Of a DNA stretch of 41,531 nucleotides, positions 8,087-10,889 are shown piece by piece; within the stretch, counting starts at the first letter, position 1, and each line of letters starts with the position of its first letter. The stretch is from a virus. A program made the translations under genes and the position numbers. The notes beneath the pieces were generated by a model that saw only the letters and a list, made by a program, of their open reading frames with translations, was not told the DNA's origin and made no database searches. Location: the UHGV virus genome UHGV-0397187; one strand, given 5' to 3'.

Positions 8087-8506
8087 TTACTCCGGTGGGG
8101 GATTATCTTTAAGCCTGCCTCTCAAATATTTTTCTACATACTCATCGATTTCTTTTAGCCGGACTTCAAATAGCTCAATCATTCGTTGTTGTTCTGAGCC
8201 CGGTAGCTGGTTAAACAACTCAAGAAGTTTTCGTTGGGATTCATTTAACCACAATTCAGAAGATTCCTGTTCTCCAAAGAGGAGCTCAGGTGGAGATATG
8301 CCAAGAGCCTTTCCCAATACGACAGCGTCATGCACTCCAACATTTCTGCTGCCCGCCTCATAGTTACCTATACGCGATTGCGTCCATCCGCAGATTTCAG
8401 CAAGTTTTCCTTGAGATAAACCAAGCTTCTGCCTGCGCTCTTTAAGACGCATTGCAATTTTGTCATTGAGCCTACTAGCGGCAATTTTTTCGTTTTCTTT
8501 TTCCAT
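8087..8506 (-). CDS. prophage repressor, HTH (XRE-family, RacR/CI-like)
   Basis: RQKLGLSQGKLAEICGWTQSRIGNYEAGSRNVG is a classic HTH; divergent from a Cro-like gene across a 96-bp operator region. Confidence 0.8.
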   Translation of the reverse strand: MEKENEKIAASRLNDKIAMRLKERRQKLGLSQGKLAEICGWTQSRIGNYEAGSRNVGVHDAVVLGKALGISPPELLFGEQESSELWLNESQRKLLELFNQLPGSEQQRMIELFEVRLKEIDEYVEKYLRGRLKDNPPPE

Positions 8507-8517
8507 TGCATCCTTGT

Positions 8518-8578
8518 ATCACGAATCGTGATTTACATAAAACACAAAACAGCTTGACCATATAACACAAGATGTGTT
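8518..8578. promoter_or_regulatory. divergent promoter/operator region (OR-like) between repressor and cro-like gene
   Basis: Palindrome atcacga-a-tcgtgat at 8518-8532; palindrome aacaca-aga-tgtgtt at 8564-8578 lying between a ttgacc -35-like and taaaat -10-like element. Confidence 0.55.
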
Positions 8579-8602
8579 TAAAATTGTCATCGGAGGTTTT
8601 CA

Positions 8603-8845
8603 ATGAACAAAATTTCAACATATCGAAAACAGCTTGGGCTGTCTCAAAGACAACTCGCTGTTCAGTTAGGGTGGATACAAAGCCGACTGGCAAATTACGA
8701 AGCAAATTTTCGTACCCCTGGACTAGAGGAGTGCAGAAAAATTGTTTCTACCCTTAATCGGCTTGGCGCTCATTGTGGACTTGACGATGTATTCCCCCCA
8801 GACGGTAAGCATAGCGAAAACAGCATAGGAGCGGTTGATTCATGA
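8603..8845 (+). CDS. Cro/YdaS-like HTH regulator
   Basis: RKQLGLSQRQLAVQLGWIQSRLANYEAN: HTH paralogous to the repressor HTH; first gene of the rightward operon. Confidence 0.75.
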   Translation: MNKISTYRKQLGLSQRQLAVQLGWIQSRLANYEANFRTPGLEECRKIVSTLNRLGAHCGLDDVFPPDGKHSENSIGAVDS

Positions 8846-9264
8846 AAATCAGGCATGAGCACATCGAATCAGTGTTGTTAGCCCTGGCAGCCGAAAAAGG
8901 GCAGGCGTGGGTCGCTAACGCAATTACTGAAGAATATCTGCGCCAGGGGGGCGGCGAATTGCCCCTGGTACCAGGCAAGGACTGGAACAATCAGCAGAAT
9001 ATCTATCATCGTTGGTTGAAAGGTGAAACGAATGCGCAAAGGGAAAAAATTCAGAAACTGATCCCAGCAATTCTGGCAATCCTTCCGCGCGAGCTGCGTC
9101 ACCGACTCTGCATCTTCGATACCCTGGAACGCCGTGCATTACTGGCGGCGCAGGAAGCGTTGAGTACGGCAATTGATGCGCATGATGATGCAGTCCAGGC
9201 CGTTTACCGGAAAGCACATTTCAGCGGTGGTGGGTCGCCCGGCGATTCTGTCGTAGTGCATTGA
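8842..9264 (+). CDS. YdaT/CII-like regulatory protein
   Basis: 140-aa ORF directly after the cro-like gene, same size and position as Rac ydaT; family assignment by position and recollection only. Confidence 0.45.
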   Translation: MKIRHEHIESVLLALAAEKGQAWVANAITEEYLRQGGGELPLVPGKDWNNQQNIYHRWLKGETNAQREKIQKLIPAILAILPRELRHRLCIFDTLERRALLAAQEALSTAIDAHDDAVQAVYRKAHFSGGGSPGDSVVVH

Positions 9265-9309
9265 TTGAAATTAATCGTGCCGGATTGTTTTGTTCGGTAT
9301 CAGTTAAAT

Positions 9310-9727
9310 GTAACGCTGTGAGCGTTACAAGGTGAAAACAAATGGCTTCAAACTGGATAAAGCTCGAGGTTATTACGCCGGATAAGCCGGAAATATTCAG
9401 GCTTGCTGAGATTCTGAATATTGATCCAGATGCCGCATTAGGGAAGGTTATTCGCTTCTGGGCATGGGCGGATCAACAAATGATAGACGGTAATGCAGAT
9501 TGTAACGCTCGCGGCGTTACAAAAAGTGCAATAGATCGCATCACTTTTATGGCTGGTTTTGCTGATGCGTTAATTCAGGTTGGATGGCTGGTCGAAAATG
9601 ACGGTGGGCTTTCTCTACCTAACTTTGAACGTCATAACGGGAAAAGCTCTAAAAAACGGGCGGTTACAAACGAGCGAGTTACAAAAATACGCGAACTGAA
9701 ACGAAAAGGTAACGCTGGCAGCGTTAC
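9310..9727. repeat. iteron-like palindromes (candidate origin / initiator binding sites)
   Basis: gtaacgc-N5-gcgttac at 9310-9328, 9502-9520 and 9709-9727, plus half-sites (ggttacaaa, agttacaaa) near 9662-9690. Confidence 0.5.
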
Positions 9728-10136
9728 ACAAATGGATCAAAAAGCGTTACCAGAGGAAGAGGAAGAGGAAGAGGAAGATATAAATACTGATCTCCCCCTA
9801 AATCCCCCTCGCCAAAAACGAGCGTCTAAAAAATTTGAGCCGGAGGCTATTGAGCTGCCCGATTGGTTGCCGGAAACACTCTGGCATGAGTGGGTCCGGT
9901 TCAGGCAGGCATTGCGAAAACCGATTCGAACGGAGCAGGGCGCTAACGGGGCGATACGGGAGCTGGAAAAATTCCGCCAGCAGGGTTTTACACCTGAGCA
10001 GGTGATTCGACACAGTATCGCCAATGAATACCAGGGCCTGTTCGCGCCGAAAGGTGTTCGGCCTGAGACGTTGCTCCGACAGGTTAACACCGTCTCGTTG
10101 CCGGACAGTGCGATCCCGCCAGGCTTCAGGGGGTAA
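9342..10136 (+). CDS. replication initiation protein (O-like / YdaU-like)
   Basis: 264-aa ORF upstream of a DnaC-like loader; contains the iteron-like palindromes and an acidic (EEEEEEEED) linker. Confidence 0.55.
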   Translation: MASNWIKLEVITPDKPEIFRLAEILNIDPDAALGKVIRFWAWADQQMIDGNADCNARGVTKSAIDRITFMAGFADALIQVGWLVENDGGLSLPNFERHNGKSSKKRAVTNERVTKIRELKRKGNAGSVTQMDQKALPEEEEEEEEDINTDLPLNPPRQKRASKKFEPEAIELPDWLPETLWHEWVRFRQALRKPIRTEQGANGAIRELEKFRQQGFTPEQVIRHSIANEYQGLFAPKGVRPETLLRQVNTVSLPDSAIPPGFRG

Positions 10137-10142
10137 CAGGCC

Positions 10143-10889
10143 ATGAAAAATATTGCGACAGGAGGCGTTCTGGAGCGTATCCGCAGACTGACCCCACCAC
10201 ATGTAACCGCCCCATTCAGAACGGTTGCGGAGTGGCGCGAGTGGCAACTTGCTGAAGGCCAGAAACGTTGCGAGGAGATCAACCGCCTGAATCGTCAGTT
10301 GCGGGTGGAAAAAATCCTGAATCGCTCTGGCATCCAGCCGTTGCACCGCAAATGTTCGTTTGCGAATTACCAGGTGCAGAACGACGGTCAGCGATACGCG
10401 TTGAGTCAGGCGAAATCCATCGCTGATGAACTGATGACCGGGTGTACAAATTTTGCGTTCAGCGGAAAGCCTGGTACCGGGAAGAACCACTTAGCGGCAG
10501 CTATCGGGAATCGCCTGCTGAAAGACGGTCAGACAGTGATTGTGGTTACCGTGGCTGATGTTATGAGTGCCCTCCACGCCAGCTATGACGACGGGCAGTC
10601 AGGCGAGAAATTTTTGCGGGAACTGTGCGAAGTGGATCTGCTGGTTCTTGATGAAATTGGCATTCAGCGCGAGACGAAAAACGAGCAGGTGGTACTGCAC
10701 CAGATTATTGATCGACGGACAGCGTCGATGCGTAGCGTGGGTATGCTGACAAACCTGAACTATGAGGCCATGAAAACATTGCTCGGCGAGCGGATTATGG
10801 ATCGCATGACCATGAACGGCGGACGCTGGGTGAATTTTAACTGGGAGAGCTGGCGTCCGAATGTCGTCCAGCCAGGAATTGCGAAGTAA
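10143..10889 (+). CDS. DnaC-like helicase loader (IstB-type AAA+ ATPase)
   Basis: Walker [18 protein letters not shown] and Walker B LLVLDEIG motifs. Confidence 0.85.

What the first reader, a model, noticed from the sequence alone, without database searches (positions are those of the whole stretch)
9310..9727. Evenly spaced 19-bp palindromes in and upstream of the replication initiator gene
GTAACGC-N5-GCGTTAC occurs at 9310, 9502 and 9709, roughly 200 bp apart, with extra half-sites around 9662-9690. These are candidate iterons (origin) or autoregulatory sites. The first overlaps the gene's own translation start region.
Basis: seen in the sequence. Interest (0 to 1): 0.45.

Follow-up and report, generated by a model that had tools for sequence, protein, structure and literature searches.

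The report
Initiator binding sites inside its gene
The three 19-bp palindromes are real, conserved DNA sites that a prophage replication initiator most likely binds within and just upstream of its own gene, marking the probable replication origin of a widespread, uncharacterised initiator family built on the phage-lambda plan.

Summary
Observation confirmed. GTAACGC-N5-GCGTTAC occurs exactly at 9310, 9502 and 9709 (0.09 expected). An exact half-site lies at 9744, with 1-mismatch half-sites at 9490 and 9676.

The gene (9342-10136) encodes a Rac-like prophage initiator. Its N-domain has no Pfam family and models weakly as a winged helix. The C-domain is DnaT-like, and a DnaC-like loader gene follows.

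The sites are under DNA-level selection:
- In 24 loci from about 15 genera the half-sites are invariant while 31 different spacers occur.
- Wobble bases inside the half-sites are 91-100% conserved, against about 30-60% elsewhere.
- Site 3 is read in a different frame in two lineages.

In 54 N-domain clusters, palindromes sit at the same gene positions, but the half-site changes (GTAACGC, GTCCGC, GTAGACG and others). The change tracks initiator residues 105 and 109 independently of overall relatedness. So the initiator itself most likely reads the sites.

The linker cluster (site 3) is near-universal. It is always followed by a 15-34 nt polypurine tract (9752-9778) and a short AT patch. This is the likely origin core.

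Site 1 is optional. The roughly 200-bp spacing is not conserved and follows protein-permissive segments. Binding and origin function remain untested. I rate it a new variant of the lambda "origin inside the initiator gene" design.

The parts
9310..9328 (.). Site 1: perfect palindrome GTAACGC-TGTGA-GCGTTAC (21 bp as TGTAACGC..GCGTTACA, 9309-9329), in the ydaT-initiator intergenic gap, immediately 5' of the Shine-Dalgarno sequence
   Evidence: One search gives the exact match. Searches show an equivalent palindrome at -20 to -44 in 11 of 24 GTAACGC-type loci. It is present only where a non-coding gap precedes the gene, and it does not depend on which gene lies upstream.
9490..9496 (+). Degenerate half-site GTAATGC (1 mismatch), 12 bp upstream of site 2. 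It is an exact GTAACGC in most relatives, giving a > > < array.
9502..9520 (.). Site 2: perfect palindrome GTAACGC-TCGCG-GCGTTAC inside the N-domain coding region. It encodes C-N-A-R-G-V-T, a variable-length, lower-confidence loop (residues 47-60).
   Evidence: Searches place it at +148/+160 in all GTAACGC-type loci. One search shows wobble bases 0.91-1.00 conserved. One search gives loop pLDDT of 60-71.
9651..9671 (+). Codons for K104-K105-R106-A107-V108-T109-N110, the motif whose residues 105 and 109 track the half-site class (inferred DNA-reading element at the start of helix 103-122)
9676..9682 (-). Degenerate half-site GAGTTAC (1 mismatch) at the left edge of the linker cluster
9709..9727 (.). 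Site 3: perfect palindrome GTAACGC-TGGCA-GCGTTAC in the interdomain linker coding region. It is the central dyad of the probable origin array.
   Evidence: One search gives the exact match. One search shows it conserved in all relatives and read in frame 1 here but frame 0 in L002-L005 and L020. Searches show a linker-zone palindrome or half-site cluster at +333 to +465 in most of the 54 N-domain clusters.
9744..9750 (-). Exact half-site GCGTTAC, 23 bp after the right arm of site 3, directly abutting the polypurine tract
   Evidence: The arrangement 'last half-site + C(C/T)AGAG...' is conserved across all site classes.
9752..9778 (+). 27-nt polypurine tract AGAGGAAGAGGAAGAGGAAGAGGAAGA (encodes E8D). 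It is the longest purine run in the window and the candidate DNA-unwinding or helicase-entry element.
   Evidence: One search shows a 15-34 nt (AGAGAAG)n or (GAGGAA)n tract after the last half-site in nearly all clusters, whatever the site class or the encoded peptide (EEEE versus REEKRRE).
9779..9793 (.). Short AT-rich patch TATAAATACTGATCT following the polypurine tract
   Evidence: GATATAAA-like sequence recurs after the tract
9342..10136 (+). Replication initiator gene (264 aa). It has an N-terminal DNA-binding domain (about aa 1-122, no Pfam family), a disordered acidic linker and a DnaT-like C-terminal domain.
   Evidence: PHROG 2509, E 6e-91. (no Pfam hit). (DnaT C-domain 2ru8, E 1e-4). 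(predicted fold, weak winged-helix matches).
10143..10889 (+). DnaC-like helicase loader gene, the likely partner of the initiator C-domain
   Evidence: IstB_IS21, Bac_DnaA ATPase; PHROG 50, E 4e-85

Best explanation
The palindromes are the cognate DNA sites of the initiator encoded by 9342-10136.

Inferred binding mode: the N-domain binds each 7-bp half-site as one subunit of a dimer. The N-domain is a probable winged helix followed by a basic helix that starts with the motif HNGxS(A/S)K-x105-R-A-x-x109. Half-sites sit in an 11-12 bp register.

Inferred origin core: the cluster in the interdomain-linker coding region. It comprises the 9676 half-site, the 9709-9727 dyad and the 9744 half-site. 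It also includes the abutting 27-nt polypurine tract (9752-9778) and the short AT patch.

Inferred initiation steps: initiator oligomers assembled on the dyad-symmetric array destabilise the polypurine/AT segment. The DnaT-like C-domain, together with the DnaC-like loader (10143-10889), then brings in host DnaB.

Sites 1 and 2 are accessory sites placed where coding constraints allow, namely the 5' untranslated gap and a variable surface loop. They may raise local initiator concentration or stabilise a looped complex. Site 1 may also damp read-through transcription into the gene.

Shown here: the existence and conservation of the sites, DNA-level selection, and protein-site covariation.

Inferred only: binding itself, unwinding at the polypurine tract, loader recruitment, and any regulatory role.
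For: 1. Non-random occurrence. There are three exact 19-bp palindromes against 0.09 expected. Ten near-exact half-sites lie in 461 bp against 1.56 expected.

2. DNA-level selection.
- 46 perfect palindromes occur in 24 loci from Escherichia, Klebsiella, Enterobacter, Serratia, Yersinia, Erwinia, Pantoea, Pectobacterium, Xanthomonas, Pseudomonas, Ralstonia and others. They have invariant arms and 31 distinct spacers.
- Wobble positions inside the site-2 half-sites are 0.91-1.00 conserved, against 0.32-0.59 at other invariant Gly and Val codons.
- Site 3 is kept although it is read in a different reading frame in L002-L005 and L020.

3. Linkage to the N-domain.
- L006 has the same ydaT, C-domain and loader but a DUF1376 N-domain. 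It lacks the sites and carries a different repeat in its linker.
- The sites persist beside unrelated upstream and downstream genes.

4. Specificity covariation.
- In 54 N-domain clusters the palindromes occupy the same gene zones, but the half-sites differ: GTAACGC 23, GTCCGC 11, GTAGACG 5, and others.
- Residue 109 is T in 20 of 22 scored GTAACGC clusters (one of the 23 is gapped there), D/E in 11 of 11 GTCCGC clusters and K in 5 of 5 GTAGACG clusters.
- Residue 105 is R in 11 of 11 GTCCGC clusters and never R in GTAACGC clusters.
- The Carin1-like lineage splits into GTAACGC and GTCCGC subgroups that are 65% identical to each other. They are only 36-41% identical to the other groups with the same site class, yet they carry the matching residues.
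- A Pusillimonas plasmid examined afterwards has T109 and GTAACGC sites.

5. Origin-like anatomy. A linker-zone palindrome or half-site cluster is found in most clusters. The arrays are dyad-symmetric, of the form (>)n > < (<)n, with 11-12 bp steps. They are followed directly by a 15-34 nt polypurine tract and then an AT patch in all classes.

6. Protein architecture. Fold matches are weak but are mostly winged-helix domains. The C-domain is DnaT-like and is followed by a DnaC-like loader gene. [quoted passage not shown]
Against: - No experiment exists. Binding, unwinding and origin activity are all inferred.
- The AT-rich patch is short (about 15 bp), and a 40-bp window never exceeds 65% A+T. 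The unwinding element is therefore not a classical one.
- In this window the linker cluster has only one full dyad plus one exact and one degenerate half-site. That is fewer sites than lambda's four iterons.
- The covariation rests on perhaps 4-6 independent switches, and there are exceptions. L203 has G109 with GTAACGC. L026 has T109 with GTGACGC. The GTGGCGC clusters (L206, L208) share K109 with the GTAGACG class.
- A few clusters show no clear sites (L023, L024, L234).
- The roles of sites 1 and 2 are not resolved.
Confidence: 0.7

Rival explanations
1. The palindromes are purely autoregulatory operators. Initiator dimers bind them to repress or roadblock transcription of the replication operon, and the origin lies elsewhere.
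For: Site 1 sits in the 5' untranslated gap next to the ribosome-binding site and recurs there in 11 loci. In iteron plasmids, Rep dimers repress their own promoter through inverted repeats (my own knowledge, not checked here). The covariation shows which protein reads the sites, not what the binding does.
Against: No sigma-70-like promoter overlaps site 1 in the window or in L012, L016, L017 and L021. Site 1 is absent from about half of the loci, whereas the intragenic linker cluster is near-universal. The invariant juxtaposition of that cluster with a polypurine tract and AT patch, across all site classes, has no obvious role in repression.
Confidence: 0.12
2. The sites are bound by some other protein, either a host factor or another phage regulator such as the repressor, Cro-like protein or YdaT, and not by the initiator.
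For: Binding has not been measured. Palindromes of this size are typical of many dimeric regulators. A YdaT-box-like repeat lies only about 30 bp upstream of site 1.
Against: Phages of the same host genus use different half-sites. In Ralstonia, QkW1 uses GTAACGC, RPZH6 uses GTCCGC and Raharianne uses GTAGACG. Among Uetakevirus phages, ZX5 uses GTAACGC and epsilon15 uses GTCCGC. This argues against a host factor. The neighbouring regulators differ between loci that share the sites. The half-site class follows residues 105 and 109 of the initiator. The YdaT consensus TTGATT-N6-AATCAA is unrelated (PMC9986795).
Confidence: 0.05
3. The palindromes act as RNA hairpins in the replication mRNA (7-bp stem, 5-nt loop), affecting translation, stability or antisense termination.
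For: Each palindrome can fold. The scan flags site 3 (minus strand) and site 1 of L017 as terminator-like. Both arms change together between classes, which an RNA stem would also require.
Against: Within a genome all sites have the same sequence, not merely the same pairing. Single and directly repeated half-sites occur at 11-12 bp steps and cannot pair. The spacer shows a weak symmetric preference T-G-N-C-A that would close the loop. The arm sequence tracks protein residues. No Rfam family matches.
Confidence: 0.03
4. The repeats are a by-product of coding (a recurring G-N-A-x-S-V-T peptide) or of chance.
For: Sites 2 and 3 are both read in the same frame in this window, as xGT AAC GCT ... 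xGC GTT ACA.
Against: Site 1 is non-coding. Site 3 is in another frame in five loci and encodes V-T-L-A-A-L there. Wobble bases are conserved far above background. The chance expectation is 0.09.
Confidence: 0.01

Closest known systems
Phage lambda ori-lambda / O protein (also Stx phages 933W and P27)
   Same: The origin is embedded in the initiator's own gene, in the segment between the N-terminal DNA-binding part and the C-terminal loader-recruiting part. The binding sites are inverted repeats of about 19 bp with a less stable tract beside them. A helicase-loader gene lies immediately downstream. Adding sites lengthens the protein: Stx phages gain 13 aa (PMC7466680), and here the Pantoea L021 loop insertion carries an extra half-site.
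   Different: The N-domain has no detectable similarity to lambda O (no Pfam hit). The C-domain is DnaT-like. Lambda has four tandem iterons. Here there is one dyad-symmetric array of half-sites at 11-12 bp steps, plus separate full palindromes about 200 bp away in a loop-coding segment and in the 5' untranslated gap. A 15-34 nt polypurine tract stands where lambda has a longer AT-rich region.
Rac prophage oriJ / YdaU of E. coli K-12 (DUF1376 N-domain)
   Same: It occupies the same genomic slot (dicA/racR, ydaS, ydaT, initiator, ydaV-like loader, ydaW). The C-terminal domain is the same. An active origin, oriJ, is known for K-12 Rac (cited in PMC11014345 and PMC3945230).
   Different: The K-12-type protein (L006) has a DUF1376 N-domain with no profile similarity to this N-domain. 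It lacks GTAACGC sites and carries a different repeat, ATGTTCAAACA, in its linker. This is a different origin specificity.
Iteron plasmid initiators (RepA/RepE/pi family)
   Same: A winged-helix-type initiator with both inverted and direct arrangements of one half-site. An upstream inverted repeat might autoregulate.
   Different: There is no Rep_3 homology. The direct copies are 7-bp half-sites at 11-12 bp steps, not 17-22 bp iterons. No promoter was detected at the upstream palindrome. The sites lie inside the coding sequence.
E. coli primosomal protein DnaT
   Same: The C-terminal domain is similar to the DnaT C-terminal domain (2ru8 E 1e-4, 9zbt E 3e-4). Relatives hit Pfam DnaT PF17948 at 1e-12 to 1e-18.
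   Different: DnaT has no sequence-specific origin-binding N-domain and acts in replication restart, not at an origin.

Membership tests
Lambda-type phage origin (ori inside the initiator gene) | Initiator-binding repeats lie within the initiator's own coding sequence, between the DNA-binding and loader-recruiting parts | tested here: met
   Site 3 and its half-sites (9676-9750) lie after predicted helix 103-122 and before the DnaT-like domain. This holds for most of the 54 clusters.
Lambda-type phage origin (ori inside the initiator gene) | Repeats are inverted repeats of about 18-19 bp, each fitting an initiator dimer | tested here: met
   19-bp dyads with invariant 7-bp arms and free 5-bp spacers. 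Dimer binding itself was not tested.
Lambda-type phage origin (ori inside the initiator gene) | Three or more closely spaced tandem iterons | tested here: not met
   In the window the linker cluster has one full dyad, one exact half-site and one degenerate half-site. The other two dyads are 207 and 399 bp away. Relatives have 2-6 half-sites in one dyad-symmetric array.
Lambda-type phage origin (ori inside the initiator gene) | Adjacent AT-rich DNA-unwinding region | tested here: inconclusive
   There is a 27-nt polypurine tract plus an AT patch of about 15 bp. A 40-bp window reaches at most 65% A+T.
Lambda-type phage origin (ori inside the initiator gene) | Initiator homologous to lambda O (Pfam Phage_rep_O) | tested here: not met
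   There is no Pfam hit at E up to 1 other than a spurious TFIIA match. PHROG 678 'O-like' matches only residues 77-238.
Lambda-type phage origin (ori inside the initiator gene) | The segment supports initiator-dependent replication | not testable with these tools
   This needs an origin-cloning assay. The only indirect hints are two circular 41-52 kb 'plasmid' records that carry the module.
Rac oriJ / YdaU (DUF1376) replication module | DUF1376 N-terminal domain | tested here: not met
   The window protein has no DUF1376 hit, whereas L006 hits it at 9e-26. hhalign probability is 0.2%.
Rac oriJ / YdaU (DUF1376) replication module | Shared C-terminal domain and DnaC-like partner in the same gene order | tested here: met
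   The C-domain is nearly identical to that of L006. The gene order matches Rac-like records.
Iteron-plasmid Rep system | Rep_3/RepA-type initiator with 17-22 bp direct iterons, plus an inverted-repeat operator over the rep promoter | tested here: not met
   There is no Rep family hit. The direct copies are 7-bp half-sites at 11-12 bp steps. No promoter was found at site 1.
Winged-helix DNA-binding domains | Helix-turn-helix followed by a beta-hairpin wing | tested here: inconclusive
DnaT-like C-terminal domain | Sequence similarity to the DnaT C-terminal domain | tested here: met
   phmmer against PDB gives 2ru8 at E 9.6e-5 and 9zbt at 2.9e-4. The match is weak in Pfam and NCBIfam for the window protein but clear for relatives L003 and L113.

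The most novel reading that the evidence does not exclude
This is a distinct, widespread class of phage origin with three proposed features.

1. An initiator made of a winged helix plus a basic helix reads 7-bp half-sites through a simple two-residue code. Position 109 is T with GTAACGC, D/E with GTCCGC (together with R105), and K with GTAGACG.

2. The initiator assembles outward from a single dyad on an 11-12 bp register.

3. It opens DNA at a conserved polypurine repeat tract, (AGAGAAG)n in most relatives, rather than at an AT-rich element. Such mirror-repeat tracts can in principle form triplex (H-DNA) structures. The fused DnaT-like domain would then capture the displaced strand and hand DnaB over from the loader.

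The dispersed dyads, one in a surface-loop codon block and one in the 5' untranslated gap, would form a looped complex that couples initiator dosage to firing.
Probability: 0.3. Interest if true: 0.65.

Novelty: new variant of a known kind. Interest (0 to 1): 0.5.

Why it matters
This would give a testable origin and DNA-recognition model for an initiator family that has no Pfam domain. The family is common in temperate phages and prophages of Enterobacterales, Pseudomonas, Xanthomonas, Ralstonia and Vibrio, and occurs in some non-proteobacterial metagenome bins. It includes epsilon15-like and Rac-like elements of E. coli, Shigella and Salmonella.

The natural series of matched protein and site variants is a ready-made specificity-swap experiment.

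The conserved polypurine tract raises the question of how strand opening works without a classical AT-rich element.

In practical terms, the sites allow replication-module typing and incompatibility prediction for prophages, and the design of conditional phage-derived replicons.

The case also shows how DNA sites can be written into permissive parts of a protein (a loop and a linker) and shape the protein sequence. Examples are the recurring V-T dipeptide and the E-rich or REEKRRE linker.

Tried and rejected
- **Rfam scan of 8500-10500.** Only two sub-threshold chance hits.
- **Promoter scans around site 1.** No sigma-70-like promoter in the window or in four relatives. Promoter-occlusion autorepression therefore has no support, although a consensus scan is weak evidence.
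- **DnaA boxes.** None near the gene, and the window total is at chance level.
- **Homology of the N-domain to DUF1376.** hhalign gave nothing.
- **Helical phasing of the 192/207-bp spacing.** Distances vary from 182 to 264 bp among relatives with no common phase. Even spacing was therefore dropped as a feature.
- **Link between site 1 and ydaT.** Site 1 occurs in loci without a ydaT homologue, or with another gene in between.
- **Literature searches.** I searched for the motif, for the epsilon15 origin, for DnaT-like phage initiators and for non-lambdoid Stx replication regions. No description of these sites was found. The library lacks most subscription journals, so prior description cannot be excluded.
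- **Plasmid search.** Only two phage-like circular records carry the module. This is weak support for replicon function.

Full report
**1. Observation**

The pattern GTAACGC-N5-GCGTTAC occurs at 9310, 9502 and 9709 with no mismatch. No other match with up to two mismatches exists in the 41.5-kb window. Dinucleotide-preserving shuffles give a mean of 0.09 matches, and none of 100 reaches three.

The sites extend to TGTAACGC..GCGTTACA at 9309 and 9501. Around them lie an exact half-site at 9744-9750 and one-mismatch half-sites at 9490 (GTAATGC) and 9676 (GAGTTAC). Ten half-sites with at most one mismatch fall in 9300-9760, against 1.56 expected from the rest of the window.

Site 1 ends 14 nt before the ATG at 9342, directly 5' of the Shine-Dalgarno sequence. 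It does not cover the start codon.

**2. Context**

The region is the early-right operon of a Rac-like lambdoid prophage:
- an HTH repressor on the minus strand (8087-8506);
- a small HTH protein (8603-8845);
- a YdaT/CII-like protein (8842-9264);
- the 264-aa protein at 9342-10136;
- a DnaC-like loader (10143-10889);
- a DUF1627/YdaW-like protein.

The DNA is 93.8% identical to 'Escherichia phage Rac' MN652886, where the gene is called ydaU.

The 264-aa protein matches PHROG 2509 'replication initiation protein' (E 6e-91). It has no Pfam or NCBIfam family for its N-terminal half. Its C-terminal 90 residues resemble the C-terminal domain of primosomal protein DnaT (2ru8, E 1e-4). Relatives hit Pfam DnaT at 1e-12 to 1e-18.

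**3. The sites are selected as DNA**

Homologues at only 68-71% DNA identity keep sites 2 and 3 exactly, at the same gene offsets. These include Klebsiella phage ST11-OXA245phi3.2 and the Uetakevirus phages ZX5, BUCT554 and TL-2011b.

In 24 loci from about 15 genera I counted 46 perfect palindromes. The 7-bp arms are invariant and there are 31 different 5-bp spacers, with only a weak symmetric preference T-G-N-C-A.

In a codon alignment of 22 loci, the wobble bases inside the site-2 half-sites are far more conserved than background:
- GGT 0.95
- AAC 1.00
- AGC 0.91
- GTT 0.91

Third positions of other invariant Gly and Val codons are 0.32-0.59 conserved.

Site 3 is read as G-N-A-G-S-V-T here. 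In L002-L005 and L020 the same DNA palindrome lies in another frame and encodes V-T-L-A-A-L. Coding constraint and chance are therefore excluded.

**4. The sites belong to the initiator N-domain**

Locus L006 (phage 683R6) has the K-12-type YdaU. It has the same ydaT, the same C-terminal domain and the same loader, but a DUF1376 N-domain. It has none of the palindromes. Instead it carries a repeat, ATGTTCAAACA, in its linker-coding region.

Conversely, the sites accompany this N-domain next to quite different neighbours. Upstream these are cytosine methylase, KilAC antirepressor, Roi, Rha or small ORFs. Downstream they are DnaC-like, P-like or DnaB-like genes, or no loader at all.

**5. Covariation of site and protein**

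I collected 325 loci, giving 170 usable distinct N-domains in 54 clusters at 85% identity. Most clusters have a 19-21 bp palindrome or half-site cluster in the linker zone, +333 to +465 from the ATG. Many have a second zone at +54 to +100 or +128 to +196. Some have an upstream zone at -20 to -70.

The half-site differs between clusters:

| Half-site | Clusters |
|---|---|
| GTAACGC | 23 |
| GTCCGC | 11 |
| GTAGACG | 5 |
| GTCAC(G/A) | 3 |
| GTGGCGC | 2 |
| GTTGCGC | 1 |
| GTGACGC | 1 |

Phages of a single host genus use different classes. In Ralstonia, QkW1, RPZH6 and Raharianne each use a different one. This argues against a host factor.

The alignment columns most informative about site class are residues 109 and 105, in the conserved motif HNGxS(A/S)K-x105-R-A-x-x109:

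| Site class | Residue 109 | Residue 105 |
|---|---|---|
| GTAACGC | T in 20 of 22 scored | never R |
| GTCCGC | D/E in 11 of 11 | R in 11 of 11 |
| GTAGACG | K in 5 of 5 | variable |

The Carin1-like lineage contains a GTAACGC subgroup (T109) and a GTCCGC subgroup (R105, D/E109). The two subgroups are 65% identical to each other. They are only 36-41% identical to the window-like and epsilon15-like groups that share their respective site classes. The residues therefore follow the site, not the phylogeny.

A Pusillimonas plasmid found afterwards has T109 and GTAACGC sites at the expected places.

Exceptions exist. L203 has G109 with GTAACGC. L026 has T109 with GTGACGC. The GTGGCGC clusters share K109 with the GTAGACG class. 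The number of independent switches is small, perhaps 4-6.

**6. Protein model**

An AlphaFold2 model of residues 1-133, built from a 65-sequence alignment, has pLDDT 76 and pTM 0.68. Its elements are helices 16-25, 29-46, 61-68 and 73-80, a beta-hairpin at 84-91, and a long basic helix at 103-122.

Site 2 encodes the low-confidence, variable-length loop at residues 47-60. Site 3 lies in the disordered linker after helix 103-122. The DNA sites therefore sit in protein segments that tolerate almost any sequence. In Pantoea L021 this loop carries a 15-residue insertion relative to most relatives, and the inserted DNA holds an extra GTAACGC half-site at +193. This resembles the 13 extra residues that two additional iterons give the O proteins of Stx phages (PMC7466680).

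**7. Where the origin probably is**

Half-sites within a zone are 11-12 bp apart. This holds for 33 of 35 same-orientation '>>' neighbours. For '<<' neighbours, 16 of 27 are 10-12 bp apart and 10 are 22-23 bp apart. Linker arrays are dyad-symmetric, of the form (>)n > < (<)n.

In every site class the last half-site is followed at once by C(C/T)AGAG and a 15-34 nt polypurine tract, then an A+T patch. In the window this tract is 9752-9778, the longest purine run in 41.5 kb, followed by TATAAATACTGATCT.

The tract is kept although the encoded peptide changes, from EEEEEEEE here to REEKRRE in epsilon15-like proteins. It too looks DNA-selected.

This is the lambda plan. The lambda origin consists of O-binding inverted-repeat iterons plus an AT-rich tract in the middle of gene O, with the loader gene downstream (PMC7466680). 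I therefore place the origin core at about 9676-9793.

This step is inference. The AT patch is short, and A+T never exceeds 65% in 40-bp windows.

**8. Sites 1 and 2, and the spacing**

Site 1 is found only where a non-coding gap precedes the gene (11 of 24 GTAACGC-type loci). It does not depend on the upstream gene, and it is often part of a > > < array. No sigma-70-like promoter overlaps it in five loci. Classical promoter occlusion is thus unsupported. A roadblock to read-through transcription, or a role in a looped initiator complex, remains possible.

Site-to-site distances vary from 182 to 264 bp among relatives, with no common helical phase. The even ~200-bp spacing is a consequence of where the protein tolerates sites, not a feature in itself.

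**9. Rivals**

- **RNA hairpin.** All sites in a genome share sequence, not just pairing. Unpaired direct half-sites occur. The spacer preference is symmetric. Protein residues track the arms. Rfam finds nothing.
- **Other binding protein.** See sections 4 and 5.
- **Purely regulatory role.** This cannot be excluded without experiments. It does not explain the universal linker array with its polypurine tract.

**10. Comparison and novelty**

The system works like lambda ori/O/P and occupies the slot of Rac oriJ/YdaU. However, the N-domain is unrelated by sequence to lambda O and to DUF1376.

The site architecture also differs from lambda:
- a single dyad-symmetric half-site array instead of tandem iterons;
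- additional full dyads in a loop-coding block and in the 5' gap;
- a polypurine tract where lambda has a longer AT-rich region.

I found no description of these sites or of this origin in the searchable literature. That library omits most subscription journals.

I rate it a new variant of a known kind, of moderate interest. Its main value is a widespread, uncharacterised initiator family that now has predicted cognate sites, a candidate two-residue recognition code and a candidate unwinding element, all directly testable.

Noticed in passing
window 8835-8852 and 9261-9278: There are two YdaT-box-like inverted repeats. TTGATTCATGAAAATCAG spans the ydaT start codon, and TTGATTGAAATTAATCGT spans its stop codon. 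They match the published YdaT consensus TTGATT-N6-AATCAA (PMC9986795, PMC11879457). The second lies about 30 bp upstream of palindrome site 1, so YdaT and the initiator may bind side by side.
   Followed up: partly
window 9727-9709 (minus strand); L017 2476-2458: The consensus scan calls the palindromes terminator-like on the minus strand, because an A-run precedes the left half-site on the plus strand. A-tracts flank many of the sites (GCGTTACAAAAA; +1 flank is A in 39 of 46) and might bend the DNA.
   Followed up: no
L006 1963-2036 (phage 683R6, K-12-type YdaU): The DUF1376-type initiator gene carries its own repeat, ATGTTCAAACA, in 3-5 direct and inverted copies in the linker-coding region. 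This is a candidate for the iterons of the oriJ-type origin.
   Followed up: no
L113 about 1947-1955 (phage epsilon15): A perfect DnaA box, TGTGGATAA, lies about 50 bp after the polypurine tract inside the epsilon15 initiator gene. No DnaA box lies near the window gene.
   Followed up: no
L017 +455, L203 +453, L242 +433, L221 +419, L227 +435 (relative to the initiator ATG): C6..C6..G6 palindromes such as CCCCCCATACCCCCCATGGGGGG recur 30-60 bp after the polypurine tract in several lineages. The window has only CCCCCTAAATCCCCCTCG at 9785-9802. Their role is unknown.
   Followed up: no
L021 2501-2872 (Pantoea stewartii prophage): The loop encoded by site 2 carries a 15-residue insertion relative to most relatives, and the inserted DNA holds an extra GTAACGC half-site at +193. 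The protein seems to grow by acquiring DNA sites, as described for extra iterons in Stx phage O genes.
   Followed up: partly
L326 (NC_015459.1, Pusillimonas) and CP088505.1 (E. coli): Two circular 41-52 kb records filed as plasmids are phage-like and carry this initiator module. The Pusillimonas record shows the expected sites. They may be phage-plasmids or circularised induced prophages.
   Followed up: partly
window 9654-9671: The codons for the inferred DNA-reading motif (K105-R-A-V-T109-N) themselves contain a half-site-like GTTACA (GCGGTTACAAAC). The recurring V-T dipeptide of the protein (residues 59-60, 108-109, 113-114, 128-129) is the translation of GTTACA.
   Followed up: no
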